From the IMG/VR virus record IMGVR_UViG_3300009503_000033, positions 1 through 63,461 of that record: 63,461 nucleotides of DNA. One strand, given 5' to 3'. Shown here piece after piece: positions 2,563-42,333 of this stretch (its first letter is position 1; every line of letters starts with the position of its first letter). The position numbers were made by a program, and so were the translations under genes. This stretch comes from a virus. Taxonomy: Duplodnaviria > Caudoviricetes. Under the pieces are notes generated by a model. It was given only the letters and a program-made list of their open reading frames with translations, searched no databases and was not told the DNA's origin.

Positions 2563-5475
2563 ATGGCTTGGCTAGAGGGATGGAGCTATAGAAAGCCCAT
2601 CACGGTTACTGCTGGTAGTAATGGAATGCCTAGTGACTATCAGGTGCTGGTTACCAATCCAATATATAATGAGAGCAATCTTGAAGGAAGCTGGCATTTT
2701 AATGAAGGTTCAGGTACAGTTGCTAAAGATAGCTCTGGTAAAGGTAGGGATGGAACCATCAGTGGAGCTACTTGGACTACTGGCAAGTTTGGTAATGGAT
2801 TACAATTTGATGGAGTAGATGACTATGTCCAGTATCCTAAAGCTGTCTGTGATGCTATTCTATCAGCACAGAAACTGACTATTTCTCTTTGGTTCAAATG
2901 GAGTACTTTAGCAACAGGCAAAACATTGGTAATGGGAGCAGACGGAGCAGGTTACTACCTTCATACTAATGCTTCTGATGCTAGTAAGATTGATTTTGAA
3001 ATTTACTACAGTGGTACTTGGTATAGACTCACTTCAGCTACTTCTGTAAGCACTGGAACTTGGTACCATATAGTAGCTACTTGGGATGGCTCAACTATGA
3101 GACTTTACTTCAACGGTGTTCAGGATGCTAATACCTTATCTCGTTCTGCTATGTCTGACAGAGCATCTTCTGGTGATAGAACTTTTAGTAATCTCTCTTC
3201 GGCTAATGCTATTGGAGGTATTATGGATGAAGTACGAATATATAGCAGAGCACTTTCTCCTGAGGAGATTAGGGAGCATTATTTAGCCAAAGCCAGACCA
3301 GACTATGAAGACATAAGATTCACTAAGTCAGATGGAACCACTACCTTGAGCTATTGGAAAGAGGCTGACGGTAAGTTCTGGGTTAAGGACCCTGATAGCT
3401 TGAGTGCTAATACGTCACACACTCTATATGTCTGCTACGGCAACCCGAGTGCGACAAGTACGAGTGATTTTGGGAATGTGTTTCCTGTTTTTAACGACAA
3501 CGCCGAGAGCGGAGTCCTGACGGACAAATGGACCAAATATGTAGAGGGAGGGACTGATAGTTCTGGTTACTCATCGGAGCAAGCCAGAAGTGGGGCAAAG
3601 AGCATAAAGGTGTGGAACACGGGTGGAGCTGGTTGTTGGACGTACGTTTACAAGACTCTTATAGCAACAACCTCAAGACGTTTTGTGGCTTGGTTTTACG
3701 ATACTGGCGATACGAGCTTGACAGCCAATATAGGTATTTTCAAAGACACAACCCCAACAACCGATGATTTTATTGCCAGAATGGGAATAGTAACATCAGT
3801 TAGTAGCTCCTATTACTGCTACGAATTAGAAGGTGGTAGCTGGGTAACTTCAAGCAAGGCGAGAAGTGTCGGGTGGCACAAGTTCCAAATCGACCTTGTT
3901 GGAGGAACAGTTAAAGTATATATTGATGACACCTTACTTGGTTCTCAAAGCACTTCTTCAAGTGCTCAAGATTTTGAGCTTCTGACGGGCGGGACTGGCA
4001 GTTCAGATGGGTTCTATGCCGATGATGTGTTCTTTGCTGCTTTAGTTTCGCCAGAGCCAACCACGAGTGTGGGCAACGAACAAGTTAACTTAACTGGCTG
4101 GCTCTATAGAAGGAAAATCACTATAGACCATACCAAAATAGACAGTGACTTGACAAGCTTTCCAATTACAGTATTTTTAAGCTCATCTAACTTTGACTTT
4201 AGTAAAGCAAGGTCTGATGGTTATGACATAAGGTTTGTTGCTAATGATGGAATGACACTGTTAAGCTATGAGAGGGAGAGGCATGACTCTTCTAATCAGG
4301 TAGCTGAGTATCACGTTAGAATACCTACTGTTTCTTCCTCTTCTGATACTGAATTATATATTTACTATGGTAATAGTAATGCTCAGGACATATCCAATCC
4401 TCCAGCAGTATGGGATAGTAATTATAAGGCAGTATGGCACATGGATGATTGGACATCAAGTACTATCAAAGACGCACGGGCTATCTATCATGGCACTAAA
4501 ACTGGAGTAAATGAACCTCAACAGATTGATGGTAAAATTGGTAAGGGTCAGAGTTTTGATGGAAGTAACGATAAAATAACCATTTCAGGAAACCCAATTG
4601 GAGTTAATTATACTGACCCATTCACAGTAGAGTTATGGATGAAGACCAATAGTGCTACAACATATCAATGGCTGTTTGGTAAGTATCAGGGAATAAATCC
4701 TTCTGGTTATTATGGATGGTTCCTTGCTGTAAGTGATACTGGTAAGTTAGTTTTTGTAACAAACAAGTCACAAATTGCTGATACACAGATTTATTCTGAT
4801 AACACCATTTCAGCAGCTACATGGTATTATGTGGCAGCAGTGCTTGACTCCTCAAGAACAATGAAAATGTATGTCAATGGTGTTCAACAGACACAAACTG
4901 GAACAGGACAAGATGGTTCACCCAACCCTTACAATACTAATATAGGATACAATCAATCAGGTAATAATATTTACTTTAATGGAGTCATTGATGAAGTACG
5001 AGCTTCATATGGAGCTAGGAGTGCTGCTTGGATTAAAGCTACCTATTACACCACCAGCAATAGCCTTTTGAGCATAGGCAATGAAGAGGTTCTCTTTACT
5101 ATAGTAAGTGATTCAGGAACTGGTGTAGAATCCATTGTGATTACCACCTCCATATCAATAAGTGAAAGTGGAACTGGTAGTGAAGTATCATTACTTTCTG
5201 CTTCATTGACAGTAAGTGAAACTGGTAGTGGTACAGATTCACCCAATATTACAGGTCAGATTTCAGCATCAGATAGTGGTTCAGGTAGTGAAGTAATAGA
5301 TAGTACGGGTTATGTTATAGTGTCTGAGGCTAGTGCAGGGAGTGATGCCATTACCAGAGCTGAAGCAATAGTACCAGTAGAAGACAGTGGCATGACATCT
5401 GATAGCATTAAATATATAAGGAACCCACCAACCAAGGCAGGAGTTCCTTCAGTGAGAGTGGTAAGGAGGAGGTAG
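2563..5475 (+). CDS. Adhesin/fibre protein with two DUF2341 and LamG (concanavalin-like) domains and a C-terminal repeat stalk
   Basis: W.YR..ITI and DIRF...DG.T.LSY DUF2341 motifs occur twice; LamG motifs (WYHIVATWDG, G.IDEVR); C-terminal S[DE]SG.G repeats. Confidence 0.85.
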   Translation: MAWLEGWSYRKPITVTAGSNGMPSDYQVLVTNPIYNESNLEGSWHFNEGSGTVAKDSSGKGRDGTISGATWTTGKFGNGLQFDGVDDYVQYPKAVCDAILSAQKLTISLWFKWSTLATGKTLVMGADGAGYYLHTNASDASKIDFEIYYSGTWYRLTSATSVSTGTWYHIVATWDGSTMRLYFNGVQDANTLSRSAMSDRASSGDRTFSNLSSANAIGGIMDEVRIYSRALSPEEIREHYLAKARPDYEDIRFTKSDGTTTLSYWKEADGKFWVKDPDSLSANTSHTLYVCYGNPSATSTSDFGNVFPVFNDNAESGVLTDKWTKYVEGGTDSSGYSSEQARSGAKSIKVWNTGGAGCWTYVYKTLIATTSRRFVAWFYDTGDTSLTANIGIFKDTTPTTDDFIARMGIVTSVSSSYYCYELEGGSWVTSSKARSVGWHKFQIDLVGGTVKVYIDDTLLGSQSTSSSAQDFELLTGGTGSSDGFYADDVFFAALVSPEPTTSVGNEQVNLTGWLYRRKITIDHTKIDSDLTSFPITVFLSSSNFDFSKARSDGYDIRFVANDGMTLLSYERERHDSSNQVAEYHVRIPTVSSSSDTELYIYYGNSNAQDISNPPAVWDSNYKAVWHMDDWTSSTIKDARAIYHGTKTGVNEPQQIDGKIGKGQSFDGSNDKITISGNPIGVNYTDPFTVELWMKTNSATTYQWLFGKYQGINPSGYYGWFLAVSDTGKLVFVTNKSQIADTQIYSDNTISAATWYYVAAVLDSSRTMKMYVNGVQQTQTGTGQDGSPNPYNTNIGYNQSGNNIYFNGVIDEVRASYGARSAAWIKATYYTTSNSLLSIGNEEVLFTIVSDSGTGVESIVITTSISISESGTGSEVSLLSASLTVSETGSGTDSPNITGQISASDSGSGSEVIDSTGYVIVSEASAGSDAITRAEAIVPVEDSGMTSDSIKYIRNPPTKAGVPSVRVVRRR
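5101..5410 (+). repeat. About six 18-aa stalk repeats (xxS[DE]SGxGx[DE])
   Basis: IVSDSGTGVE / SISESGTGSE / TVSETGSGTD / SASDSGSGSE / IVSEASAGSD / PVEDSGMTSD. Confidence 0.8.
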
Positions 5476-7465: not shown

Positions 7466-7996
7466 ATGGTAGATTATACTACCGACCAATGGCTTCAGGT
7501 AGTTGATTGGCAGTCTATGGCTAGAGCTATAGGAGTAAATGGTGTATTGACAGGGCTACAGGTAAGTCCCGTATCTGGTATGAACATTAGTGTAGCTGCT
7601 GGTGAGGCTTTAATCAATGGTAAGAAAATAACTAAGTCCAGCTCTACAGAACTTACTGTTCCTGCTGCTAATGCTAACTACCCCAGAAAGGATATAGTGG
7701 TGCTAAATGACTCTGGGACTTTGTCAGTAGTTAGTGGTAGTCCAGAAGCTACCTATCCAGACCCAGACAAGGTAGGCATCTATACACCTATACCTAGACC
7801 TCCATCATTACCAAGTAATTCCATCATACTAGCTGAAATATGGGTACCAGCTGGGGCTACAAGCATAGGTAGCGATAATATATATGACAAGAGACACATA
7901 GTTGTGGACAAGATATTGTCCATAGAGTGTAGGACATCAGACCCAACAGGTAGTGAACTATGGGATGGGAGAATATGGCTTCGACTAGACCTATAG
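7466..7996 (+). CDS. Tail fibre/baseplate protein
   Basis: GLQV..GM.ISVAAGEA.ING, PRKDIVV, LAEIWVPAG..I.DKR motifs of minor tail proteins. Confidence 0.65.
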   Translation: MVDYTTDQWLQVVDWQSMARAIGVNGVLTGLQVSPVSGMNISVAAGEALINGKKITKSSSTELTVPAANANYPRKDIVVLNDSGTLSVVSGSPEATYPDPDKVGIYTPIPRPPSLPSNSIILAEIWVPAGATSIGSDNIYDKRHIVVDKILSIECRTSDPTGSELWDGRIWLRLDL

Positions 7997-8238
7997 AACC
8001 TCAATTCACCATAAAGAAGATTGAAAGTAGTATAGAACATCGTGCAGAGGGTCTGAAGGATAGCAATGGCAAGCCTGTTTCATTCAGGGTTATAGTAGGA
8101 GAAAGGAGAGGTGAAGCTACTATATACTACAGTGATGGGGTAGTAGAGAGGGTAAAGTATCCAGAGCAATGGAGTAATAAGGAAGCTGAAGATTATATAA
8201 GAAGCTACCATGGTAGGGGTGCAAAATGCCAAAGTTAA
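7960..8238 (+). CDS. Hypothetical protein in the tail module
   Basis: ORF fills the gap between tail genes; start uncertain. Confidence 0.5.
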   Translation: MGWENMASTRPIEPQFTIKKIESSIEHRAEGLKDSNGKPVSFRVIVGERRGEATIYYSDGVVERVKYPEQWSNKEAEDYIRSYHGRGAKCQS

Positions 8239-8915
8239 AGGTAAAGAAAGGTAATGTAAAGCACGTCAGCAAGTCACTGGTTACACCAGCAGGGTCTATA
8301 CCATTGAGAGTATATAGTGGAGGTAGTTCCTATGGCATTCCTTTAACCACATCTACAGCTACATCATGGTCTGATGCTTCTAATACTAAGCCATCAGAAC
8401 CAGAGTTTCGAACTCCTATCAAGATACAGAAAGGTAGTGGCTATTATATAAAGTCTGAAGTGACATATACAGATGCTGGGCATGGTGATGTAGCTCATAA
8501 TGACGTAGCTCATTCCGACAGTCATAGTAACTGGAGCAACCATTCTAACTGGAGTAATGTTCCTTCTTGGTCAAACAGTGGAACTTCTTGGCATAATGGT
8601 GATTGGTATGGTTATCATTATGATTATTTCGAATCACGTAGGACGGAAAATCTGTACGATTATTACTACCATTACGACGGTACAGTGAAGTATGACACAG
8701 CTAAAAGTAGTTACTCATGGAGTGCTGGAAGCCATGCCGACTATTGGGACTATGGAAGTGGAACTTTGAGAAGTGGTTCGGCTCATGGAGATTATACGGA
8801 CCATTCCGATGCTAGTAGCCATAGCGATACCCATAGTGATGTAGCCCATTCTGATGTATTGCATTCCGATTCTGCTCATTCTAACTGGTACAATATCTAT
8901 ACAGAGCCAATCTAA
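8226..8915 (+). CDS. His/Trp/Tyr-x-Asp/Asn repeat protein; putative radical SAM-modified tail fibre tip
   Basis: About 23 [HWY]-x-[DN] triads in two arms flanking an aromatic-rich core; last gene of the tail operon; converges on the radical SAM operon. Confidence 0.7.
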   Translation: MPKLKVKKGNVKHVSKSLVTPAGSIPLRVYSGGSSYGIPLTTSTATSWSDASNTKPSEPEFRTPIKIQKGSGYYIKSEVTYTDAGHGDVAHNDVAHSDSHSNWSNHSNWSNVPSWSNSGTSWHNGDWYGYHYDYFESRRTENLYDYYYHYDGTVKYDTAKSSYSWSAGSHADYWDYGSGTLRSGSAHGDYTDHSDASSHSDTHSDVAHSDVLHSDSAHSNWYNIYTEPI

Positions 8916-8916
8916 T

Positions 8917-9747
8917 TTATGTAACTCGAATTATGTACTTGTCTTCTGTATAGCCTGTGGTGGTAACACCAAGGAATAGGTTGGTATTTACCTGTAGTAT
9001 GCCTCTGTAAGCATTCCATTCCAGTGGCATGGATAGAAGTTTAATTAGCCATAGGTAAGCTTTCCTATCTATGCTTCTCATTGTATCTTTCCAATACCAA
9101 GCCATATCCTTGGTACTATTACACTGAAAGCTACAAGGTAAGTGAGAAGTCAGTCTGATGCCAAAGTACCTAAGTAGCTGATTACACTCCACATAAGGCT
9201 TGATGGTTATATAATGGACATAACCCTCATCTTCCATAGGTTCTGATACTTCCTTAGTTCCTGTAGCTATAGCTGCTTCCCACATAGGGTCTATCTTACC
9301 TCTTTTCCATCTGTCATTAAAGGCTATAGTACAGCACTCTGGATAACCTAACATCCTACCTACTTCTAAATGTACTTTATTGGAGTCATTAGAGGCAATT
9401 TTAAATTTCATAGCCGTATCCTTATCTCTAGCCAGAACTCCATATATAAAACGGTCTTGGTTAGGTGCTGGAGCTATATGCCTATGACTGAATCCTTGAT
9501 ACTTAGCCGAAACAGCTATAGGAAGGAATACCAGTCCATCAACAGCTATTCTAGAGAGAATATCTAGTCCATTATCCATATCTACGTGTATAGTAGCCAC
9601 ATCTCTATAGCCATTCTTGACTGTTAGGTATTCTGCTTGGGTAAACATAGAACTAATCCTATTCAGCCTATCTTGCCATAGGTTCTCTTTTGATTCAGTC
9701 TTCCATATTGTCCTAGTGAATGGGACTATATCCAATGCTACTTTCAC
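8917..9747 (-). CDS. Cys-motif protein (DUF483-like), putative radical SAM partner
   Basis: GRMLGYPECC and SHLPCSFQC motifs; 4-nt overlap with the radical SAM stop. Confidence 0.6.
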   Translation of the reverse strand: MKVALDIVPFTRTIWKTESKENLWQDRLNRISSMFTQAEYLTVKNGYRDVATIHVDMDNGLDILSRIAVDGLVFLPIAVSAKYQGFSHRHIAPAPNQDRFIYGVLARDKDTAMKFKIASNDSNKVHLEVGRMLGYPECCTIAFNDRWKRGKIDPMWEAAIATGTKEVSEPMEDEGYVHYITIKPYVECNQLLRYFGIRLTSHLPCSFQCNSTKDMAWYWKDTMRSIDRKAYLWLIKLLSMPLEWNAYRGILQVNTNLFLGVTTTGYTEDKYIIRVT

Positions 9748-11798
9748 AGGTATCCATCCATGTGCCTACAGGCACCATCTAGGTGCTCTATGCTACCAGA
9801 TGGTCTAGGCTGTATGTCATTATATATCAACTCAAATAGAGCCTTCCATACTGGACAGAACTTATCCTTTCTTCTCCAATCAGAATTAATACCGTGATTG
9901 GGGCAACCTCCCAAGCATGATTGCCACCATCTACATCCATTACAGTCAGTTTCTAGTAGTAGCTTCTCTCTAATGTCTGGTCTATAGTCCTTTGCTCTAG
10001 GAAAGGGAGGCTCATTGTGATAGAGCTTGGTACAATTGGTGTCTACTCCATCATACCTGATGGCATGTATAGAAGGTGTATTGAATGGGTCACATCTACC
10101 AAAGATACACACCGCATCCTTACCTCTAAGCCTATCTGCTATGTCTATGAAGGGAGAATAATGAAGGTTATGCTCCTTACAGAAGTAGTAAAGGTCAGTA
10201 TAGAAGTCGATAGCCTCTTCTACAGTTAATTCCCATTCCCTATTAGGCATGTTGTTAGTAATACAAGCTAAGTTCATCCTACCATGGGTTATTCCTATGG
10301 ATTTTAAATCAAGTAGCCACTTCTTATATAATTCCCTATATTTTACGGCATTGAGCTTATGGATGACACTAATGATGCTTACTGGTATGCCCTCTTCACG
10401 TAGTCTATAAATATTATGTAACACAGATTTACCCATAGCTATACGTTTCTGCTTGCTACCCTTGCCTCTTAAGGCATTGCATACTGGTGGTCCATCTACC
10501 GATACAGATACGTGGGTATTATACTTCTTAAATGCCTTTATTTGCCAGTCCTTAATATTGTAAGCACCTGTCTGGATAGATGATTGCCCTCTCATTATAT
10601 AACCAAGTTCCAGTATCTTGTTGAATACCCTCTTAGGATAGGTAGTAGGCTCACCTCCATGCAATACAATATCATGTGCAGGGCATTCCCTTGCTAGTTT
10701 AGCTATAGTGTCTATGATTTTATGTAATTTAAATTTAGGTGGTGTACTATACCATCCAGACTGCTTTATGAAACAATTGTGAAGTATGTAACCTTCAGCA
10801 ATAAAGGTTTCGATGTCAGTCTGGAGATTATATACCGTTTTAATTCCTCCTTTCTTGATATCGATAATTGCTTCAGATTTTTTAGGTCTTAATCCATCAA
10901 ATGACATTTTCCTTAATATACTAGGCTGAGTTAAAGCAAAGAATCGTTGTTTTTCTTTCCTATCTCCTTTCAGACGAACGGTTGGACAATGAGCTTTATG
11001 TCTTTCTATGACTGATTCAAAGTTAAATAAAGAGAGATAATCGTGTATTCGTTCTAGAATTTCCTCGTTTGAATTGCTTATCCTTAAGATATTGTGGCTA
11101 AAACTACCTTCTGCATCAAAAATTCCAGCTAAATACCCTCTTTTCCATTCTCTATCACCTTCATTAGAAACAAGCTCAGAGAGAATCTTAAATGAAGAGT
11201 GGTCCTCTCTGTAAATGGCTCTCATATTCTGCTGGAACTGATACTGTTTAACGTTAATGCCTAATTCTTTTAGATAAGAAGTAGCTCGTTCTAGAGCTTG
11301 CTCGTCCTTTAGAGCAATTCTGAACCTATAATAAGTGAGGTTATCTTTATAGTTATATTGCCTTAGAAGACCATCTCCATCTATTAAACCTGCTAAATAA
11401 CCTTTCTTGTAACTCAATGTTTCTTCTTGATTGTCAATAGGAATGAATGGGCGTTTAATTTTATTCAGACTTCTACCTCTCAATTTACATGGTAAAACTC
11501 TCTCAATAGTTCTCCACCCTTTAGAAGTAAGATAAGGGTGGTCAGAAGTAAGCTCTATTGAGCCTTGTTCAGTAATTAACTTAAAAGTTAGAGCTTCTCT
11601 TGAGCTTAAAGCTATTACCTTTCCTCTAGTGAACTTCCATTTACCATCTATTTTCTTTACACCGATGATTTCTTCTCCCTCCTTCAATCTTTCTATGGGT
11701 TTCCATTGGTGATTGAGCATAAGTATTCTTGTGCCTGCTGGAAGACAGTACTTACATTCATAAGGGCATTGTAAGAAGCTTTCTGTAGCTATGGTCAT
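9744..11798 (-). CDS. Radical SAM/SPASM-domain enzyme containing an intein (about 360 aa spliced)
   Basis: CPYECKY|C motif rebuilt after splicing; LHGGEPT; VSVDGP; SPASM cysteines (CIFGRC, NC, CNGCRWWQSCLGGC, FC). Confidence 0.9.
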   Translation of the reverse strand: MTIATESFLQCPYECKYCLPAGTRILMLNHQWKPIERLKEGEEIIGVKKIDGKWKFTRGKVIALSSREALTFKLITEQGSIELTSDHPYLTSKGWRTIERVLPCKLRGRSLNKIKRPFIPIDNQEETLSYKKGYLAGLIDGDGLLRQYNYKDNLTYYRFRIALKDEQALERATSYLKELGINVKQYQFQQNMRAIYREDHSSFKILSELVSNEGDREWKRGYLAGIFDAEGSFSHNILRISNSNEEILERIHDYLSLFNFESVIERHKAHCPTVRLKGDRKEKQRFFALTQPSILRKMSFDGLRPKKSEAIIDIKKGGIKTVYNLQTDIETFIAEGYILHNCFIKQSGWYSTPPKFKLHKIIDTIAKLARECPAHDIVLHGGEPTTYPKRVFNKILELGYIMRGQSSIQTGAYNIKDWQIKAFKKYNTHVSVSVDGPPVCNALRGKGSKQKRIAMGKSVLHNIYRLREEGIPVSIISVIHKLNAVKYRELYKKWLLDLKSIGITHGRMNLACITNNMPNREWELTVEEAIDFYTDLYYFCKEHNLHYSPFIDIADRLRGKDAVCIFGRCDPFNTPSIHAIRYDGVDTNCTKLYHNEPPFPRAKDYRPDIREKLLLETDCNGCRWWQSCLGGCPNHGINSDWRRKDKFCPVWKALFELIYNDIQPRPSGSIEHLDGACRHMDGYL
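10776..11747 (-). mobile_element. Intein with LAGLIDADG endonuclease (324 aa) inside the CxxxCxxC motif
   Basis: CLPAGTRI start, HN|C end, LAGLIDGDG and LAGIFDAEG motifs. Confidence 0.95.
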
Positions 11799-13081
11799 TC
11801 TTCCATCTCCAAGGTAAGCACAGGTATGGATGATGGAGCTGGTTTCATCTCCTCTTGCATCAACATCAGTAGAGCGTCTACCATATCATCTCCCTTACCC
11901 CTATCTGGATTGTAGTAAGCCAGTTCCCTAAGCACTTCATCGTACCCTTCCCATATCTTTATCCTACCCTCTTCTACCACTACTCTTAATGTTTCTATCA
12001 TTCTGGGCTTATCCTTCCTAAAGGATACTGGCACTACAGGTATGCCCATGTTCTTCAGCCTCTGCCATTCAGAGATATTTTCTGAATCAACGAGCACCTT
12101 GATGGGTTTGTACCTTTCTACCAGTGCCTGTATCCTATTAAGTTGCTCAGGGTATGGTACTTTCTTCCAGAGTTGGGCATCCAGAATTATATAGCGATTA
12201 CCTACCTTTTGGGCTACTATTACTGCTGATGGGTGTACTGCCTGTCCCCAGTCTACCAGTATGTATGTAGAGGCATCATCTATAGGCTCTGGTTTTAATG
12301 GTGTCTTTAGTCTATGTATGTCCTCTAACCTGAATAGACTGGGGGTGTCATCCATGGCAAATATACCTTCCCACATAATTTTAAATTGGGCATTGGGTAG
12401 ATGCTGTCTAGCCCACTCTATTTCATCCTTACTTATCCAAGTACACTGGCTGGCATCCCAATGGAACCTCTTCCAGTTAGGATACTTGGTCTCATTGGCA
12501 TAGTACTCCCAGAATATACTATCATAATACGGTGTGCTGGATAGAATTACCTTGGAGTAGTTCATACCAGCTACTCTGGAAGGAGCATCCAGTATCAGGT
12601 TAGGGTCTTTCTTAGCTGCATCTGATGCTTCGTCTACTATAATCATGTTCACATGGGGACCATGGTATGCTGTAGGACTAGCTGCTAGAGCTACTATTTC
12701 AGAGCCATCTAGGAAGCTAGTATAGCTCTTAAGAGGTTCCTTCTTGAGTTTAGAAGTAAGGAACTCATGCTTATATAAGTACTTCGTAAAATATGAATAC
12801 AATACGTCAGATTGCCTCTGTGAACCAGCTAGTATCATCACTCTATATGGCTCATGTATTATGGTAGGTAGGACTGTAGTAGCCCATAGGGACATTAGAG
12901 CTAATGTCAATGTCTTACCTGTGGAACTGGCATTACTAACCAGAATTCGAGTTACATTAAAATCTATTAAGGTATCCAATAACTCCTTCTGAGGTGGTAT
13001 TGGTTTGTACCCAGTGATGTCTTCAAAGAACTTACTGGGCTTGGTTTGCCACAGTAATAGCCTAGCTGGATTTACTGGCAT
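11795..13081 (-). CDS. terL: Terminase large subunit
   Basis: Walker A-like SSTGKT, Walker B IIVDEA, LSSTP, RNase H-like nuclease (LVDWG, DDMVDAL). Confidence 0.9.
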   Translation of the reverse strand: MPVNPARLLLWQTKPSKFFEDITGYKPIPPQKELLDTLIDFNVTRILVSNASSTGKTLTLALMSLWATTVLPTIIHEPYRVMILAGSQRQSDVLYSYFTKYLYKHEFLTSKLKKEPLKSYTSFLDGSEIVALAASPTAYHGPHVNMIIVDEASDAAKKDPNLILDAPSRVAGMNYSKVILSSTPYYDSIFWEYYANETKYPNWKRFHWDASQCTWISKDEIEWARQHLPNAQFKIMWEGIFAMDDTPSLFRLEDIHRLKTPLKPEPIDDASTYILVDWGQAVHPSAVIVAQKVGNRYIILDAQLWKKVPYPEQLNRIQALVERYKPIKVLVDSENISEWQRLKNMGIPVVPVSFRKDKPRMIETLRVVVEEGRIKIWEGYDEVLRELAYYNPDRGKGDDMVDALLMLMQEEMKPAPSSIPVLTLEMEE

Positions 13082-13577
13082 CCTTATCCCACAGGTCAGC
13101 TATCTTTTCTATATACTCCACAGGTACTTCAGCCTTCTTCATTAGCTCAATCAGCTTGGTGTATTGTTCCTCTAAGGTCATAGTCTTGGTAGGCATCTTA
13201 GCCTGTATCCTTTCTATAGCCTCTAATGTCTTTCTACCTTCTGATATGGCTAATAATATCTTTGGTAGCTGTTCTGTATCCACACCATTCCTAAGTATGT
13301 TGTCCAGAGAGTCATTAATAATAGTCAAGTAGTTTGTAAGGTGGTCTAATGCCTCTGGTACTTCCAGTGTCTGGCTTTGTACCATTCCTTCCACTACTGG
13401 CACTGTTTGTTTCCTATCTTTCAGAAGCTTCCAGACAGTCATTTTGGATAGGTCATAACCAGCCTCCTTTAGATAGACCTGTACTTCAGATATGCTCTTG
13501 CCTTCAGAATAATACATTTCCAGAGCCTTAGCTTTAACATCAGGTCTGATGCTATCTATCTTACTTGGAGGAGGCAT
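13062..13577 (-). CDS. Putative terminase small subunit (N-terminal HTH)
   Basis: HTH-like N-terminus, helical body, overlaps the terL start. Confidence 0.65.
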   Translation of the reverse strand: MPPPSKIDSIRPDVKAKALEMYYSEGKSISEVQVYLKEAGYDLSKMTVWKLLKDRKQTVPVVEGMVQSQTLEVPEALDHLTNYLTIINDSLDNILRNGVDTEQLPKILLAISEGRKTLEAIERIQAKMPTKTMTLEEQYTKLIELMKKAEVPVEYIEKIADLWDKDASKSS

Positions 13578-33810: not shown

Positions 33811-33994
33811 GATAAAGAAGACAAGTAAGAGGACATGGGAAGTAAGCACCATAGATGGAGTGTACGACGTATACTTTGCTGGAGGAGTACTGAGATGTAC
33901 ATGCCCAGCATACAATAGGATGGTAAAGAAGTATCCAGACTATGCCTGTAGGCACATAGTGGCTGTAATGAGAAGGGAGGATATGGAAATATGA
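33782..33994 (+). CDS. SWIM zinc finger protein
   Basis: CTCP...CRHIVAV. Confidence 0.8.
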   Translation: MSQESVQPVEIKKTSKRTWEVSTIDGVYDVYFAGGVLRCTCPAYNRMVKKYPDYACRHIVAVMRREDMEI

Positions 33995-36015
33995 CCAATG
34001 ACAACCTTGAAGCTGTAAGAGGGATAGGACAGGAAACAGCAGCTAAATTGATGGCTAAGGGAATCACCACCATAGCTCAACTATCTAATATGAGACCAGA
34101 GGAACTAAAAGCTGAACTTGGCATTACTTTAGCCAAAGCTAAGGCTATAGTTCAGGATGCTAGGTCGATAGTGCTAAAGACAGAGGTGGAATGTAAGCTT
34201 GCCGATGAGCTGGACAAGGAAATGAAGGAAAGAATTAAGATAATTTCTACTGGGGCTAAGGGACTGGATGGCATTTTGGGAGGAGGCATAAGAACTGACT
34301 GTCTGACTGGCATTGCTGGTGAATACTGTCATAGCGAAGATACTATGGTCTTCACAGAAGAAGGATTCAAATCCTTTGAAGAAGTAAAAGTAGGAGATAA
34401 AGTTTTGGGCATTGATAAAAACCATAATATAGTCCAAACAGAAGTGATTGGTAAGTATGAATTTCCATATAGTGGAAAGTTGATTCACTTTCATAGCAGA
34501 AGGTACGATTTCTTAGTTACACCAATGCATAGAATGATATTTAAAGCCCAGGGAGAGAACGAATACAAGTATATCAATGCCTATAAGTTGCTTCATCAAG
34601 TAGGTTACTTCTTGACTTCTTTTAATTACGAAGGCAATTTAATTGAATATTTTGACATCCATCCTTATATTAAAATTAACAGGGAACCAGAACATCCAAA
34701 GAAGGCTCATCCTAAGCCTAATCTGAAGCCACTGCCAGCAAATTTGTTTATGGAATTTATGGGCTGGTACATCTCAGAAGGGTGTATATTTCATACAAAA
34801 CGAGGGGACTACATAAGCATTAGGCAAACAAGGCATTCAAATGAGCTTGAATCATTGCTAAAGAATCTGGAGCTAGATTTCAAGGTCTATGAAGGCTCAA
34901 AATATGTTATTTTCCATAGGGATTTAGCAGAATACTGTAAGAGATGTGGGCAAGGAGCTAAAAACAAGACAATTCCCAAGGAGCTGTTAAGATTATCAAG
35001 GGAGCAATTGTATCATCTATTTAAAGGGTTAATGCTTGGAGATGGTAGTTCTAGAGGCTATAGCTACTTTACTTCCTCTAAGCAATTAGCTCATGACTTC
35101 CTGCTTCTTTTGCTCAAGCTTGGATTCAATGGCAGTATTGTTGAAAGGGAAATTAAGGAAGGAGGGCTTGTTAAGGGCAAGAGAATTAGAGCGACAGATA
35201 AGGGGTACTGCATCAATATCTCCTATGAACCCAGAGGCTATTTCTCTCCTTGGGAGGATGAAGTTGAAGAAGTTGATTATCAAGGCAAAGTCTGGTGCTT
35301 TGAAACTACCACAGGCAACTTCTTTGCTTATAGGAATGGCAAGGTTGGCATTTCAGGTAATTCAGTAGGTAAGACGCAGCTATGCTTCCAGCTACTGGTG
35401 AATAATGTCATGCAGCACAATAGAAAGGGGGTATATATTGAGACAGAGCCAGGGACTTGGTATGGTGACAGGGTTAGGGAAATAGCAACTGCTGCTGGGT
35501 ATAAGGATGACATTCTGAAGCACATGTACGTCATTCCTGCTAAGTCAATACCAGATGCCTATGCTCAATACAATGCCTACCTCAGGGTAGAACAGTTATG
35601 TGAAGAGGGAGCAGACATAGGATTAACAATTATAGACAGCTTCAATGCTAAGTTCAGAAGTACGTTCACTGGTAGAGAACAGCTACCAGCACGTTCCTCA
35701 GAGTATGGTAGGCATATAGGATTGCTACAGAAGCTAGCTTCCAAATACAATATGGCTGTAGTAATGACTGTACAGGTAATGGGAGTACCAGATACTTCAG
35801 CACAGCATATTGCTATAGCCAAGACAGGAATGTACAAAGCACCTGTAGTACCAGACTTCGTCCTACACAGCTTGACATGGCTGGGCATTACACCAGTGGG
35901 TAAGAACTCATGGAAAATAACCTTGTTTGACAGCTCCTTCCTACCAAGGAATGAAGCTATCTTTACTGTAGATAAAGGTGGCATCAAGGACTATGTAGGT
36001 AAGCTCAAAGAGTGA
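33991..36015 (+). CDS. radA: RadA-family recombinase with an intein (about 329 aa spliced)
   Basis: N-terminal HhH, ISTG..GLDGILGGGI, GEY|SVGKTQL, YIETE, IIDS. Confidence 0.9.
   Translation: MTNDNLEAVRGIGQETAAKLMAKGITTIAQLSNMRPEELKAELGITLAKAKAIVQDARSIVLKTEVECKLADELDKEMKERIKIISTGAKGLDGILGGGIRTDCLTGIAGEYCHSEDTMVFTEEGFKSFEEVKVGDKVLGIDKNHNIVQTEVIGKYEFPYSGKLIHFHSRRYDFLVTPMHRMIFKAQGENEYKYINAYKLLHQVGYFLTSFNYEGNLIEYFDIHPYIKINREPEHPKKAHPKPNLKPLPANLFMEFMGWYISEGCIFHTKRGDYISIRQTRHSNELESLLKNLELDFKVYEGSKYVIFHRDLAEYCKRCGQGAKNKTIPKELLRLSREQLYHLFKGLMLGDGSSRGYSYFTSSKQLAHDFLLLLLKLGFNGSIVEREIKEGGLVKGKRIRATDKGYCINISYEPRGYFSPWEDEVEEVDYQGKVWCFETTTGNFFAYRNGKVGISGNSVGKTQLCFQLLVNNVMQHNRKGVYIETEPGTWYGDRVREIATAAGYKDDILKHMYVIPAKSIPDAYAQYNAYLRVEQLCEEGADIGLTIIDSFNAKFRSTFTGREQLPARSSEYGRHIGLLQKLASKYNMAVVMTVQVMGVPDTSAQHIAIAKTGMYKAPVVPDFVLHSLTWLGITPVGKNSWKITLFDSSFLPRNEAIFTVDKGGIKDYVGKLKE
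34327..35361 (+). mobile_element. Intein with LAGLIDADG endonuclease (345 aa) in the RadA P-loop
   Basis: CHSEDT start, GN|S end, GWYISEG and GLMLGDG motifs. Confidence 0.92.
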
Positions 36016-40078: not shown

Positions 40079-41188
40079 GTGTTATATATCAGAGTATTAA
40101 TCCTTACAGAACCAATTACATCAACTGATATGTATGGAGAGATAGCTATCCAACTGGCTACCTATCTTGCTCAGGATAAGGATTACAAAGTCCATATTTT
40201 ACCCCTTCAATATGGTCCTACCAAGCCTCTTTTGCTTAATGGAGTATATATAGTGGGATTGAATGAAGGTATCCATGGTGCTGAGGCACTATCTTCCTTC
40301 CTCTCTCTTTCCAAACCAGATGTGCTAATTACTATGTGTATGCCTCAATCACTTTCTAAGTTAGATGCCAAGGCAGTTAGATGGATAGCTATGTATGATA
40401 GCATAGATTCACCCTTCTTGGATGGTGTACCGGAGGAGGCAGATGCCATAGTTACCAATACTAAATATATAAAGAAGAAGCTTAAGGAGGAGCTATTTCT
40501 TGATGCTCATTATATACCTGCTACGATAGAAGGTGCATATGCCAAGGAAGACACTACCGAATCCAGAAAGAGCTTAGGACTACCAGCAGAACCATTCTAT
40601 GTGGGTGTACTATCCAATAACCTAATGTATGAACAAATACCCACTGTAGTAATGGCATTCTCTATGGCATTCCAGAATACTCCTGTCAAGCTATCATTTC
40701 TATGTGCTCCATATAGAAGTAATGGGACTATGATACCAGAAGTCTGTAAACTGTTCAAGGTATTGGACCAGACTACCTTTCTAATGCATTCTGATGAGCT
40801 TTCTCCTTCTCAAATGGTTATAAAGGCATGGTTAAATTCATGTAACATAGTTTGTACAGCCAGTACAGGCTCCATAGACTATAGATTAGCCCTACAAGCT
40901 ATGGCTACAGGTAGACCAATAATTTATAATGGAGGTAATCCAATCCTCAAGGAGGTCATAGGTGATGCTGGATTACCCATAAAGAGTAATATGTTCTTTA
41001 GGGACATTTGGTATAGGAAGAGGTGGTGTGCTGACCCTGTAGCTATGAAGGAAGCTATGGTGGAACTTTATAATAATAGCAAGCTAAGGGAAGAGCTTTC
41101 GAGTAAGGCTGTGGATAGGTATAGGGACTATAGTCCTGCTGTGGTTCTGCCTAAGTGGAAGAGGCTTATAGAGGAGGTAGTTTCATGA
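40079..41188 (+). CDS. GT4-like glycosyltransferase, degenerate catalytic motif
   Basis: Paralogous to the next gene; GSIDYRLALQAMATGRPII replaces EGFGLPLIEA. Confidence 0.7.
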   Translation: MLYIRVLILTEPITSTDMYGEIAIQLATYLAQDKDYKVHILPLQYGPTKPLLLNGVYIVGLNEGIHGAEALSSFLSLSKPDVLITMCMPQSLSKLDAKAVRWIAMYDSIDSPFLDGVPEEADAIVTNTKYIKKKLKEELFLDAHYIPATIEGAYAKEDTTESRKSLGLPAEPFYVGVLSNNLMYEQIPTVVMAFSMAFQNTPVKLSFLCAPYRSNGTMIPEVCKLFKVLDQTTFLMHSDELSPSQMVIKAWLNSCNIVCTASTGSIDYRLALQAMATGRPIIYNGGNPILKEVIGDAGLPIKSNMFFRDIWYRKRWCADPVAMKEAMVELYNNSKLREELSSKAVDRYRDYSPAVVLPKWKRLIEEVVS

Positions 41189-42333
41189 GGGTATTAATAA
41201 TCAGTACCACACCCATGAATCCCACAGGCTATGGAATAGTAAGTAAGTACCTATCACAAGGTCTTGGAGAGGAACATGACGTATATATCTATGCTGAAGG
41301 CTATCAAGGACAGGAAATGAAGTTTGGTAAGGCTACTTTAGTTCCTACAGTAAGACCTGACGTGGAATTTAGACAGGATTCGATAGGTAGAATATATACT
41401 TCAATAAATAGGTACAAACCTGATGTGGTAATACCAATAGGTGACTTGCTATTCTATGACTACTTGGTAGAGCGTAAGAGGAATTTTAAATTGGTTCCTT
41501 ACTTCCCTGTAGATTCAGACCCTCCAAGGTATAGGGAAGTGCTGATGTGTAAGAATCTTGATGCTGTGGTAACCATCAGTAAGTGGGGTAAGAAGGTGCT
41601 GGAAAAGTATGGTGTTAAGGATGTTCATGCCATTCCCCATGGATACAATCCTGACATCTTTAAGCCTATGGATAAGAAGGTTATCAGAGAGCAGCTTGGA
41701 TTGCCCACCAATATATTCCTTCTGGGTACAGTTTCTACCAATGTCTGGCGTAAGAACATACCCAGTTTACTAGCCAGTTTTAAGTTAGCCTTTAGTGATA
41801 CGCCAGATGTTCATTTGCTAATGGTAACTCCACCTACCTCTAGGTATGGTTCAGACTTACCATCACTGGTTAAGTATTTAAAATTACAAAATAGGGTACA
41901 CTTTGTAGAGCAACTAGAATACTTAGCCTTGAGTGAGGCAGAACTAGCTCTATTATATAATGCTATGGATGTATTTGTGCTGGCTAGTACTGGAGAGGGC
42001 TTTGGATTGCCTCTGATAGAGGCTCAGGCTAGTGGAGTGCCCTGTATAGGTACTGATTACTCCAGCATAACAGAGCTACTGGAAGGCTCTGGGTTGTTAG
42101 TAAAGACTAAAGGTGGCTGGTGGGATGTCTTTGGTACTTGGAGGGCTGTAGTGGATGAGGATGCTATGGCTACAGCCATGAGAAAGTTGTATGACAATCC
42201 TGACCTTAGGGAGGAACTATCTAGGAAGGCTATAGAGAAAGCTAAGGAATATACGTGGCAGAACTCCAATAGGCAATGGTTAGATTTATTAAGCTCAATA
42301 GGTGATGTAGAGAGTGGTAAGCATGGGCATTAG
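41185..42333 (+). CDS. GT4 glycosyltransferase
   Basis: PTGYG, IPHG, RKN, GEGFGLPLIEAQASGVP. Confidence 0.9.
   Translation: MRVLIISTTPMNPTGYGIVSKYLSQGLGEEHDVYIYAEGYQGQEMKFGKATLVPTVRPDVEFRQDSIGRIYTSINRYKPDVVIPIGDLLFYDYLVERKRNFKLVPYFPVDSDPPRYREVLMCKNLDAVVTISKWGKKVLEKYGVKDVHAIPHGYNPDIFKPMDKKVIREQLGLPTNIFLLGTVSTNVWRKNIPSLLASFKLAFSDTPDVHLLMVTPPTSRYGSDLPSLVKYLKLQNRVHFVEQLEYLALSEAELALLYNAMDVFVLASTGEGFGLPLIEAQASGVPCIGTDYSSITELLEGSGLLVKTKGGWWDVFGTWRAVVDEDAMATAMRKLYDNPDLREELSRKAIEKAKEYTWQNSNRQWLDLLSSIGDVESGKHGH

What the first reader, a model, noticed from the sequence alone, without database searches (positions are those of the whole stretch)
8226..11798. Candidate virion-modifying RiPP-like system: radical SAM/SPASM enzyme, Cys-rich partner and a tail protein full of aromatic-x-Asp/Asn triads
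Seen: the last tail-operon gene carries about 23 [H/W/Y]-x-[D/N] triads (HGD, HND, HSD, HSN, WSN, YTD, HYD, WYN). It converges, 1 nt apart, on a LGYPECC protein and a SPASM radical SAM enzyme, both joined by 4-nt overlaps to the terminase genes, which implies late expression. Known: triceptide maturases (radical SAM/SPASM enzymes such as the XyeB and His-Xaa-Ser classes) cross-link an aromatic residue to the residue two positions away to form cyclophanes. Inference: this virus uses that chemistry on a structural protein rather than a secreted peptide, to rigidify or stabilise its receptor-binding fibre. I see no RiPP transporter or leader peptidase nearby, which fits a structural substrate.
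Basis: partly seen in the sequence, partly recalled or inferred. Interest (0 to 1): 0.93.

Follow-up and report, generated by a model that had tools for sequence, protein, structure and literature searches.

The report
Radical-SAM cassette for aromatic-x-Asp fibre protein
A hot-spring archaeal-type tailed virus carries a three-gene cassette, also found in many other viruses including cultured Thermus phages, in which a radical SAM enzyme and a partner of unknown fold very probably modify a tail-fibre-like protein built from dozens of aromatic-x-Asp/Asn triads, a kind of chemistry so far known only from small secreted peptides.

Summary
The 229-aa protein (8226-8915) has 24 [HWY]x[DN] triads against 6.4±2.1 in shuffles. 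It abuts a DUF483-like LGYPECC protein and an intein-split radical SAM/SPASM enzyme.

Of 80 unique related loci, 57 hold a triad-rich ORF. All 26 loci with both flanks present hold one, and every negative locus is truncated. The Thermus phages Cumys and phiLo also have the cassette beside baseplate genes.

New findings:
- The enzymes of His-type systems end in their own HxD motifs.
- The aromatic position swaps between His, Trp and Tyr, while position 3 stays Asp/Asn.
- The DUF483-like partner is predicted to dock on the SPASM domain (ipSAE 0.84, best control 0.32).
- The partner occurs fused to the radical SAM enzyme, to methyltransferases and to PqqD-type peptide-recognition domains.

The enzyme reaches no curated family cut-off and is equally near anSME and the cyclophane synthases. 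Enzyme-substrate linkage is well supported. Cyclophane chemistry, presence in the virion and a stabilising role remain inferences.

The parts
8226..8915 (+). Repeat protein, 229 aa. It has a conserved N-terminal ~80 aa followed by an aromatic-x-Asp/Asn triad region. It is the presumed substrate.
   Evidence: ORF. (24 triads vs 6.4±2.1). (no Pfam, PHROG or NCBIfam family); in the alignment with 3 homologues the invariant columns of the repeat region are mostly the H/W/Y and D/N of the triads.
8466..8894 (+). Triad-rich region (residues 81-223): HGD, HND, HSD, HSN, WSN, WHN, HYD, HAD, YWD, YTD and WYN at spacings of mostly 3-5 residues.
8917..9747 (-). DUF483-like partner protein, 276 aa, with GFSHxH, LGYPxCC and HLPCSxxC motifs.
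   Evidence: PF04467 22.5 bits, cut-off 25. (13 of 17 listed proteins carry PF04467). (invariant residues). (AF2 pLDDT 92.8). (no PDB fold match at E<=1e-3). (predicted docking to the rSAM).
9744..11798 (-). Radical SAM/SPASM enzyme precursor, 684 aa: a 17-aa N-extein, a 324-aa intein and a 343-aa C-extein.
10776..11747 (-). LAGLIDADG intein inserted between the second and third Cys of CxxxCxxC. It starts with Cys and ends His-Asn, with Cys at +1.
   Evidence: LAGLIDADG_3 56.8 bits, Hom_end 28.1 bits.; a homologous intein (32% identity, E 3e-40) sits at the same site in L018.
9747..9791 (-). C-terminal tail of the enzyme, IEHLDGACRHMDGYL, carrying two HxD triads. H332, D334 and D341 are invariant across the 24 family members.
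11795..13081 (-). Large terminase subunit. Context only: it shares the strand and a 4-nt overlap with the rSAM gene.
13062..13577 (-). Possible small terminase subunit (context, weak).
   Evidence: phrog_426, E 0.0052.

Best explanation
The three genes form a conserved protein-maturation cassette. After intein splicing rebuilds its CxxxCxxC motif, the anSME-like radical SAM/SPASM enzyme pairs with the DUF483-like protein through its SPASM domain. The pair then post-translationally modifies the aromatic-x-Asp/Asn triads of the neighbouring fibre-like protein. The most likely reaction is triceptide-type. The 5'-deoxyadenosyl radical abstracts the C-beta hydrogen of the Asp/Asn, the radical adds to the His, Trp or Tyr ring two residues upstream, and a three-residue cyclophane results, costing 2 Da per triad. 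The window protein has 24 candidate sites and relatives have up to about 138. Shown here: gene linkage, motif conservation, fusions and the predicted docking. Inferred: that the repeat protein is the substrate, the cross-link chemistry, presence in the virion, and a stabilising purpose.
For: 1. Linkage. 10 of 10 viral loci have the DUF483-like gene directly after the rSAM gene, and 9 of 10 have an HxD-rich ORF directly before it; the tenth starts inside the rSAM gene. Over viral, genome and metagenome loci, 57 of 80 unique loci have a triad-rich ORF: 50 upstream on the same strand, 6 convergent as in the window, 1 downstream. The figure is 26 of 26 where both flanks are present.
2. Rarity elsewhere. 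ORFs that triad-rich are scarce. In the 178.5-kb phiLo genome only 3 fibre-like genes and the enzyme's own tail reach the threshold.
3. Motif selection. In 60 repeat proteins, position 1 is H 63%, Y 20%, W 13%, F 4% and position 3 is D 80%, N 20%. 92% of His residues in the repeat regions have D/N at +2. Spacing is 3, 4 or 5, so the triad and not a fixed period is the unit. His and Tyr swap at aligned triads, H and W alternate as in HTDWTD, and all-Tyr versions exist. An aromatic ring is the common factor, not a metal ligand.
4. The enzyme carries HxD motifs on its own C-terminus, with H332, D334 and D341 invariant in 24 of 24 members.
5. The enzyme has a full rSAM motif and eight conserved SPASM-region Cys. 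Its best curated hits include DynA, AmcB, YhhB, XyeB, FxsB and GrrM/OscB, all cross-linking peptide maturases, in 23-24 of 24 members.
6. His-C2 to C-beta cyclophanes on H-x-x motifs are established chemistry for HtkB, HaaB and YhhB (PMC11499958, part 1 of the text read).
7. Peptide-directed partner. DUF483-like domains occur fused to PqqD domains (P0177, P0144), to methyltransferases and to the rSAM itself (L013, L070, P0060, P0099, P0118, P0157).
8. Predicted rSAM-partner complex: ipSAE 0.84 (three runs 0.85, 0.80, 0.84), best of 3 controls 0.32. This mark was reached by 58 of 80 solved complexes and 2 of 110 mismatched pairs. The runs agree in at least 86% of contacts and the partner's pLDDT is at least 85. 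My own alignments were used, so the calibration holds only roughly. The interface includes the family-invariant DWR motif. A roughly 110-aa mini-partner in L064, L067, L068, L076 and L047 keeps only that interface segment.
9. Structural context. The cassette follows baseplate or fibre genes in Cumys and phiLo. The repeats are fused to Laminin_G_3 in L001. Tail-fibre or tape-measure genes lie upstream in L003, L005, L006 and L007.
Against: No chemistry was or could be tested. Every curated family score is far below its cut-off (for example DynA 65 vs 450 bits, XyeB 29 vs 450, anSME 57 vs 349). The best solved relative over the full length is the sulfatase maturase anSME, not a cyclophane synthase.

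His and Asp are classical metal ligands, and one DUF483 fusion carries 'heavy-metal chelation' domains (P0178).

The HxD tail of the enzyme is unexplained. It is absent from the four Tyr-type systems and from the six fused enzymes, which does not fit a simple pseudo-substrate reading.

The substrates are 184-1290 aa, far larger than any triceptide precursor I read about. AF2 gave no usable model of the repeat protein (pLDDT 28.8).

Presence in the virion and expression timing are unknown. The only published comment on this module guesses DNA modification and cites cyanobacterial loci near deazapurine genes, which I did not examine.
Confidence: 0.55

Rival explanations
1. Same cassette and same substrate, but different radical chemistry at the triads. 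Candidates are alpha,beta-didehydro-Asp/Asn (also -2 Da), epimerisation to D-residues, a His N-C or Tyr O-C link, or an oxidation that a fused or neighbouring methyltransferase, glycosyltransferase or sulfotransferase then elaborates.
For: The closest solved relative is anSME, a two-electron C-beta oxidase and not a cross-linker. No cyclophane-synthase cut-off is reached. [quoted passage not shown] Many partners are fused to methyltransferases. Some cassettes add two GT-A-like genes (my reading of a DxD motif; no Pfam family at threshold) and a sulfotransferase.
Against: Strict conservation of an aromatic residue exactly two positions before the Asp/Asn, with free H/W/Y/F exchange, is what a ring-to-C-beta link needs. 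Dehydration or epimerisation of Asp alone would not explain it. No link between DUF483 and methyl-coenzyme M reductase was examined here.
Confidence: 0.25
2. The repeat protein is a leader-bearing precursor of released or surface-displayed peptides, a classical RiPP or pilin-type product, and not part of the virion.
For: In the two candidate-phyla-radiation bacterial MAG loci, the Tyr-x-Asp/Asn protein has an N-terminal hydrophobic, pilin-like segment. The preceding gene is a type IV leader peptidase (Peptidase_A24 29.4 bits, Arc_PepC 30.1 bits). PqqD fusions are typical of RiPP pathways. The window protein is small at 229 aa and has a conserved ~80-aa N-terminus.
Against: In viruses the gene follows fibre or baseplate genes. 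The repeats can lie inside 700-1290-aa proteins with fibre-like N-termini and a Laminin_G_3 domain. No protease or exporter lies beside the cassette in the window or in Cumys.
Confidence: 0.12
3. The triads are unmodified metal-binding or self-folding fibre repeats, like the His-x-His iron sites of the phage T4 long tail fibre tip (recalled, not from a call). On this reading the rSAM/DUF483 pair serves another target such as DNA, as guessed for Thermus phages.
For: His and Asp are good metal ligands. A DUF364/DUF4213 'heavy-metal chelation' fusion exists. The published guess is DNA modification (10.1101/2024.08.14.607894, passages).
Against: This does not explain why the enzyme gene is adjacent to the repeat gene in 26 of 26 complete loci. 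It does not explain why the enzyme itself ends in HxD motifs. It does not explain why Trp and Phe, which do not bind metals, replace His at position 1, or why partners are fused to PqqD peptide-recognition domains.
Confidence: 0.08

Closest known systems
Triceptide synthases, the three-residue cyclophane-forming rSAM/SPASM enzymes (HtkB, HaaB, YhhB, XyeB, ChlB, GrrM/OscB, FxsB)
   Same: It is a radical SAM plus SPASM enzyme encoded next to a protein rich in aromatic-X-X motifs. His at position 1 is a known ring donor (HTK, HAA, HNR; PMC11499958). All 24 family members hit these curated models weakly.
   Different: No curated cut-off is reached. The substrates are 184-1290-aa fibre-like or pilin-like proteins with a median of 47 and up to 138 triads, not short leader-core peptides. 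Position 3 is fixed as Asp/Asn. There is an obligate DUF483-like partner, HxD motifs on the enzyme itself, and a viral tail-module context. The cross-link itself is not shown.
'rSAM module' of Thermus phages Cumys and phiMa (Viruses 2024, also bioRxiv 10.1101/2024.08.14.607894); also present in phiLo
   Same: It is the same three-gene cassette. Cumys_13 (54 HxD), Cumys_12 (rSAM ending EHGDYTDHGDAPHGDHWDG) and Cumys_11 (DUF483) follow the baseplate and tail-collar genes. The rSAM is 30% and the partner 33% identical to the window proteins.
   Different: The paper calls two of the genes unknown and suggests DNA modification. In the passages I searched, the words histidine and His-rich do not occur and no 'repeat' passage concerns this gene. 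The window version is in an archaeal-type virus, is intein-split, and has the enzyme pair inverted onto the terminase strand.
Anaerobic sulfatase-maturating enzyme (anSMEcpe, PDB 4k36)
   Same: It is the best solved relative over the full length (E 2.4e-29, profile 5-351 vs chain 8-377). It shares the layout: the rSAM motif near the N-terminus, no N-terminal recognition domain, and a twin-cluster SPASM Cys pattern.
   Different: TIGR03942 scores 57 bits against a cut-off of 349. No sulfatase was seen among the window ORFs scanned, and not all ORFs were scanned. The neighbour is a triad-repeat protein instead.
His-Xaa-Ser (Hxs) repeat system, with paired rSAM enzymes HxsB and HxsC
   Same: It is a repeat protein with His-x-small/polar triads next to rSAM/SPASM enzymes, and it is itself uncharacterised.
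   Different: HxsB scores 13.7 bits against a cut-off of 370 and HxsC 13 against 268. There is only one rSAM gene here. Position 3 is Asp/Asn and not Ser. The repeat protein hits no NCBIfam model.
QhpD, the rSAM/SPASM enzyme that cross-links a protein subunit (its role is recalled, not taken from a call)
   Same: It is a precedent for a SPASM enzyme acting on a folded protein's Asp/Glu carbon rather than on a secreted peptide. TIGR03906 is hit by 15 of 24 family members, best E 8e-11.
   Different: That system makes Cys thioether links, and the repeat regions here have almost no Cys (0.2%). The similarity is weak.

Membership tests
Radical SAM superfamily (PF04055) | A CxxxCxxC cluster motif and the Radical_SAM domain. 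| tested here: met
   Radical_SAM scores 41.8 bits (cut-off 29.5). The motif reads C11-x3-C15-x2-[intein]-C342 and is contiguous only after splicing. Intact homologues have CxxxCxxC at the aligned place.
SPASM / anSME-like subgroup | A C-terminal Cys set for two auxiliary 4Fe-4S clusters, including CxxCx5CxxxC. | tested here: met
   Eight conserved Cys: C224, C229 (at least 90%), C249, C279, C282, C288, C292 and C308, including CNGCRWWQSCLGGC. By HMM alone TIGR04085 gives 20.2 bits, below its cut-off of 27.
Anaerobic sulfatase maturase (TIGR03942) | A score over the curated cut-off. | tested here: not met
   57.4 bits against a cut-off of 349.45. The best E over 24 members is 3.1e-27.
Triceptide synthases (3-CyFE) | Membership of a curated cyclophane-synthase family (XyeB, YhhB, GrrM/OscB, FxsB, AmcB). 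| tested here: not met
   Scores are 29, 36, 34, 27 and 60 bits against cut-offs of 450, 445, 310, 370 and 425.
Triceptide synthases (3-CyFE) | An adjacent substrate with aromatic-X-X motifs. | tested here: met
   24 triads in the window protein. 57 of 80 loci, and 26 of 26 complete loci.
Triceptide synthases (3-CyFE) | An aromatic carbon to C-beta cross-link, costing 2 Da per motif. | not testable with these tools
   This needs co-expression followed by MS/MS and NMR.
Triceptide RiPPs (the product) | A short leader-core precursor released as a peptide. | tested here: not met
   The substrates are 184-1290 aa, some with Laminin_G_3 or fibre-like N-termini. No protease or exporter lies beside the window cassette.
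DUF483 (PF04467) | A score over the Pfam gathering cut-off. | tested here: inconclusive
   The window protein scores 22.5 bits against a cut-off of 25. 13 of the 17 proteins listed carry PF04467 as a precomputed domain. The Atlas's nearest clusters carry PF04467 in 16-40% of members.
His-Xaa-Ser system | Paired HxsB and HxsC enzymes and the HxsA repeat protein. | tested here: not met
   HxsB scores 13.7 bits and HxsC 13 bits, far below their cut-offs. The repeat protein hits no NCBIfam family.
Pentapeptide-repeat proteins (PF00805) | A Pfam match and a strict period of 5. | tested here: not met
   No Pfam family for the window protein or for 7 relatives. Triad spacing is mixed: 3 (1130 cases), 4 (431) and 5 (1266).
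LAGLIDADG intein | Cys at position 1, a terminal His-Asn with Cys at +1, and two LAGLIDADG motifs. | tested here: met
   CLPAGT...ILHN|C, with LAGLIDGDG at residue 135 and LAGIFDAEG at residue 223. LAGLIDADG_3 scores 56.8 bits.

The most novel reading that the evidence does not exclude
Tailed viruses of archaea and bacteria, and some candidate-phyla-radiation bacteria on pilin-like proteins, use a dedicated radical SAM/SPASM plus DUF483 enzyme pair to staple their fibre proteins with tens to more than a hundred three-residue His/Trp/Tyr-to-Asp/Asn cyclophane rings. That would be the first RiPP-type cross-linking of a virion structural protein. It would also give the large DUF483 family, with 2338 representative clusters, its first function.
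Probability: 0.45. Interest if true: 0.9.

Novelty: new variant of a known kind. Interest (0 to 1): 0.82.

Why it matters
Radical SAM cross-linking is known from small secreted peptides. Here the apparent substrate is a large structural protein of a virus, with up to 138 candidate sites per chain.

If confirmed, it would show a new way for viruses to harden or functionalise receptor-binding fibres. The window virus and the three cultured carriers come from hot springs.

It would assign a role to DUF483-like proteins: 2338 representative clusters at E<=1e-3 and 594 at E<=1e-30. It would correct the published guess that the Thermus-phage module modifies DNA. It would also give peptide chemists a naturally processive enzyme for repeats.

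The question is directly testable, because Cumys, phiMa and phiLo grow on Thermus thermophilus HB8.

Tried and rejected
Things that led nowhere:
- AF2 of the repeat protein with a 4-row alignment gave mean pLDDT 28.8, so no fold can be read.
- Foldseek of the confident DUF483-like model against the PDB gave no match at E<=1e-3. The best were 2guk at 0.031 and the Cys methyltransferase NleE at 0.059, with TM 0.27-0.35. I treat these as no assignment.
- The Atlas search for the partner only returned unnamed DUF483-type viral clusters. For the N-terminal 100 residues of the L010 repeat protein the scores were at most 0.78, so uninformative.
- Pfam and PHROGs on 7 whole repeat proteins gave nothing except two weak PHROG hits for L005. 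The Laminin_G_3 domain in L001 appeared only when that part was scanned alone.
- The promoter and terminator scan was no better than shuffles and is not suited to an archaeal-type virus.
- No tRNA genes were found.
- Sequencing runs: no RNA holder was listed. Laying contigs of 4 DNA runs showed no joint, so no intein-free allele was seen. Parts without cover in run X4 prove nothing.
- I considered a tree against characterised families and dropped it. HMM scores to DynA, anSME, TIGR04083 and AmcB are tied (best E 1.7e-27 to 7.3e-27), so placement would be unresolved, and reference sequences would have had to come from memory.
- phiLo first looked like a counter-example, with no repeat gene within 6 kb. 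Its whole genome then showed three such genes 3-9 kb away.
The C-extein alone (P0001) was used instead.

Literature searches. DUF483, triceptide + radical SAM + histidine (18), three-residue cyclophane (39), radical SAM + SPASM + tail fiber + phage (60), triceptide + phage (61), radical SAM / archaeal virus / Asgard / intein (63) and didehydroaspartate (78) found no description of this substrate-enzyme idea. Subscription journals and supplements are outside what I could see. The supplements of the Thermus paper may hold more on its Figure 3B loci. Two hits on radical SAM in archaeal viromes were unrelated.

Full report
WHAT IS THERE. The window is an IMG/VR virus record of 63,461 bp with direct terminal repeats. 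It encodes a RadA/Rad51-type recombinase, a family B DNA polymerase, an ATP-dependent ligase and a Mu-like portal. That makes it an archaeal-type tailed virus. One enzyme homologue is labelled Thorarchaeota. Two hot-springs metagenome runs hold 0.89 and 0.86 of the stretch's sampled words.

The + strand tail genes include a Laminin_G_3/DUF2341 fibre, a phrog_400 tail protein and an ORF (7466-7996) whose best PHROG hit is labelled head protein, with a weaker baseplate-protein hit. They end with ORF 8226-8915 (229 aa). One nucleotide later, on the other strand, lies ORF 8917-9747 (276 aa, LGYPECC). It overlaps the 684-aa radical SAM (rSAM) ORF 9744-11798 by 4 nt, and that ORF overlaps the large terminase gene by 4 nt.

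The 229-aa protein has 24 [HWY]x[DN] triads, 23 of them in residues 81-229. Shuffles give 6.4±2.1, and 0 of 5000 reach 24.

THE ENZYME. The rSAM motif reads C11-x3-C15-x2 and is then interrupted by a 324-aa LAGLIDADG intein (residues 18-341, window 10776-11747). The +1 Cys of the intein junction is the third cluster ligand, so the enzyme can bind its cluster only after splicing. A homologous intein (32% identity, E 3e-40) sits at the same site in a 43%-identical enzyme from another sample (L018).

The C-extein carries eight conserved Cys in the anSME/SPASM pattern. The best solved relative over the full length is anSMEcpe (4k36, E 2.4e-29). The rSAM domain of the triceptide synthase ChlB comes next, over the N-terminal half.

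With NCBIfam, all 24 family members hit DynA, anSME, TIGR04083, AmcB, YhhB, XyeB and FxsB. The best E-values are tied near 1e-27 and every score is far below its cut-off. It is therefore a separate clade of the anSME-like SPASM enzymes. Its place relative to the cyclophane synthases is not resolved.

THE LINKAGE TEST.

In 10 viral contigs, 10 of 10 have the DUF483-like gene directly downstream of the rSAM gene. 9 of 10 have an HxD-rich ORF (23-75 HxD) directly upstream, and the tenth contig begins inside the rSAM gene.

Adding 2 genome loci and 80 metagenome loci gives 92 loci, 80 of them unique. I called an ORF triad-rich if it had at least 9 [HWYF]x[DN] triads in 60 residues. The distribution over 4521 frames is bimodal, with almost all frames at 7 or fewer. 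By this measure 57 of 80 loci have a triad-rich ORF: 50 upstream on the same strand, 6 convergent as in the window, and 1 downstream.

All 23 loci without one are cut at a contig end on at least one side. Of the 26 loci with at least 1 kb upstream, a DUF483 gene and at least 1.5 kb beyond it, 26 have one. Of 44 loci with at least 1 kb upstream, 40 have one. The four exceptions end within 904 bp after the last cassette gene.

CULTURED PHAGES. Thermus phages Cumys, phiMa and phiLo are the only records of 50,697 phage genomes that match the rSAM or the partner. In Cumys the gene order is baseplate genes, tail collar fibre, a 98-aa gene, Cumys_13 (343 aa, 54 HxD), the rSAM, then DUF483.

phiLo has an IS605 transposase beside the pair and no repeat gene within 6 kb. 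Its full genome, however, holds three triad-rich genes: phiLo_135, 136 and 137, with 72, 113 and 81 triads. They lie directly after the baseplate wedge genes, 3-9 kb from the pair. So no counter-example was found.

THE MOTIF. Over 60 unique repeat proteins, position 1 is H 63%, Y 20%, W 13% and F 4%. Position 3 is D 80% and N 20%. 92% of all His in the repeat regions have D/N at +2. Successive triads lie 3 residues apart (1130 cases), 4 apart (431) or 5 apart (1266). Cys is 0.2% of residues.

In the alignment of the window protein with its three homologues, the invariant columns of the repeat region are mostly the H/W/Y and D/N of the triads. YTD aligns with HSD, and HSD with YSD. Other members alternate His and Trp, as in HTDWTDHSDWSD. 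Two candidate-phyla-radiation bacterial MAG loci and two metagenome loci use almost only Tyr, as in YSDYGNYSD.

A conserved aromatic ring two residues before a conserved Asp/Asn, at variable spacing, is the signature of an aromatic-X-X cross-link motif as defined for triceptides (PMC11499958). A metal-ligand role or a fixed-period solenoid explains it poorly.

THE ENZYME CARRIES THE MOTIF ITSELF. All 24 aligned family members end in H-x-D units: H.DG.EH.DG..RH.DS in the window's clade, and (R)PHGD repeated 3-5 times in another clade. H332, D334 and D341 are invariant. The window enzyme ends IEHLDGACRHMDGYL.

Across the unique loci, the tails of His-type systems nearly all carry such units. The four Tyr-type systems do not. 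Neither do the six enzymes fused to the partner: L013, L070, P0060, P0099, P0118 and P0157. I cannot say whether the tail is a cis substrate, a pseudo-substrate, a tether or a metal site. It does tie the enzyme family to the HxD motif independently of gene order.

THE PARTNER. The LGYPECC protein scores just under the DUF483 cut-off (22.5 vs 25 bits), and 13 of the 17 proteins listed carry PF04467. Invariant residues include GFSHxH, LGYPxCC and HLPCSxxC. AF2 gives a confident model (pLDDT 92.8) with no PDB fold match at E<=1e-3.

The family is large: 2338 representative clusters at E<=1e-3, 1279 at 1e-10 and 594 at 1e-30. Of the best 150, 35 are at least 450 aa long. I scanned eight of those long forms and the two long partners from L009 and L010. 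They show fusions to class I methyltransferases, to PqqD domains (P0177, P0144), to rSAM plus methyltransferase (P0157), and to DUF364/DUF4213 (P0178). L013 and L070 are direct rSAM-DUF483 fusions.

The complex prediction supports binding. The score is ipSAE 0.84 (runs 0.85, 0.80, 0.84), against 0.32 for the best of 3 controls. That mark was reached by 58 of 80 solved complexes and 2 of 110 mismatched pairs. The runs agree in at least 86% of contacts and the partner's pLDDT is at least 85. My own alignments were used, so these counts hold only roughly.

The interface joins the SPASM region of the enzyme, including the invariant DWR motif (residues 300-302 of P0001), to partner residues 2-21, 171-173, 247-250, 259, 261 and 270. 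Independently, five loci have only a roughly 110-aa gene after the rSAM, and it matches just profile positions 217-270 of the partner, which is that interface segment.

The PqqD fusions point to a peptide or protein substrate. The methyltransferase fusions point to further tailoring in some systems. So do two GT-A-like genes (my reading of a DxD motif; no Pfam family at threshold) and a Sulfotransfer_3 domain that lie between the rSAM and partner genes in L020, L029 and L034.

STRUCTURAL CONTEXT. In L001 the repeats lie inside a 1290-aa protein with a Laminin_G_3 domain (39 bits). In L003 and L006 the preceding ORF is a tail fibre, and in L005 and L007 a tape measure lies upstream. L010 instead has a DarB-like protein upstream. 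In Cumys and phiLo the repeat genes follow the baseplate genes. In the bacterial MAG loci the Tyr-type protein has a pilin-like hydrophobic N-terminus and follows an A24 leader peptidase. That suggests the same chemistry is applied to a cell-surface filament.

INTERPRETATION. The best reading is that the rSAM/SPASM-DUF483 pair modifies the triads of the fibre-like protein, most likely by aromatic-to-C-beta cyclophane formation (confidence 0.55). Linkage, motif conservation, fusions and predicted docking are shown here. The substrate relation is a strong inference. The bond type, presence in the virion, expression timing and purpose are inferences.

The main rival keeps the same substrate but proposes other chemistry (0.25). 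Less likely are a released or displayed peptide product (0.12) and unmodified metal-binding repeats with the enzyme serving DNA modification, which is the published guess for Cumys and phiMa (0.08).

NOVELTY. The three-gene module is in print as an 'rSAM module' of unknown function. In my searches I found no description of the following:
- the aromatic-x-Asp/Asn repeat substrate;
- the enzyme's own HxD tail;
- the His/Trp/Tyr variants;
- the docking role of the DUF483-like protein;
- the link to triceptide chemistry.

Noticed in passing
window 33991-36015 and 45123-50423: Two more intein-bearing genes. One is a RadA/Rad51-type recombinase with a LAGLIDADG segment. The other is a 1766-aa ORF combining a beta-lactamase-fold domain, an ATP-dependent DNA ligase and intein/LAGLIDADG parts. 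With the rSAM, that makes at least three split genes in one 63-kb virus.
   Followed up: partly
L018:3894-6089 (also L019): An rSAM homologue with about 43% identical exteins carries a homologous intein (32% identity, E 3e-40) at exactly the same site, before the third Cys of CxxxCxxC. This site in the cluster-binding motif is a recurrent homing site.
   Followed up: partly
L013:5223-7884 and L014:4024-7930: These are candidate-phyla-radiation bacterial MAG contigs (Saccharibacteria, Nealsonbacteria). They hold an A24 leader peptidase, then a protein with a pilin-like N-terminus and (Tyr-x-Asp/Asn)n at period 3, then the rSAM and DUF483, which are fused in L013. This looks like a cellular, Tyr-type version of the cassette.
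   Followed up: partly
L020:3116-5283, L029:1890-3184, L034:1235-2535: Two paralogous genes of about 215 aa with a DxD motif, GT-A-like by eye but with no Pfam family at threshold, lie between the rSAM and DUF483 genes. In L020 there is also a Sulfotransfer_3 domain at 68.5 bits. These may be extra tailoring steps.
   Followed up: partly
L064:6089-6445, L067:5953-6270, L068:2707-3054, L076:797-1108, L047:1527-1760: In one sub-clade the gene after the rSAM is only about 78-120 aa long. It matches just the C-terminal segment of the DUF483-like profile (positions 217-270), the part predicted to touch the rSAM.
   Followed up: partly
L072:9443-10894: This repeat protein has long runs of pentapeptides ending H-S-Y (PHSYV, PHSYI) mixed with H-S-D. 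Its rSAM has no HxD tail. It may be a variant with Tyr at position 3.
   Followed up: no
P0177, P0144, P0157, P0178 and other long DUF483-like proteins: The DUF483-like domain is fused to PqqD-type recognition domains, class I methyltransferases, rSAM domains and DUF364/DUF4213 'heavy-metal chelation' domains. The family has 2338 representative clusters. It also rings in Methanocaldococcus jannaschii.
   Followed up: partly
L009:476-1336, L010:8621-9856, L011:3685-4716 (Cumys_13) and others: Many repeat proteins start with one to three copies of a roughly 35-aa unit, PGSxWxEGxxLxYxDxxGxxxR. The window's clade has a different N-terminus, with PLR(I/V)xxGGxxY units. No family was found for either.
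   Followed up: partly
window 41155-42333 and 42314-43549: A GT4-family glycosyltransferase gene overlaps the start of the Mu-like portal gene.
   Followed up: no
window 2563-5475: A 970-aa tail protein with two Laminin_G_3 and two DUF2341 stretches. It also has a weak domain-level match (29.2 bits) to the lectin-like N-terminal receptor-binding fold named after clostridial neurotoxins. I read this as a carbohydrate-binding fibre and nothing more.
   Followed up: no
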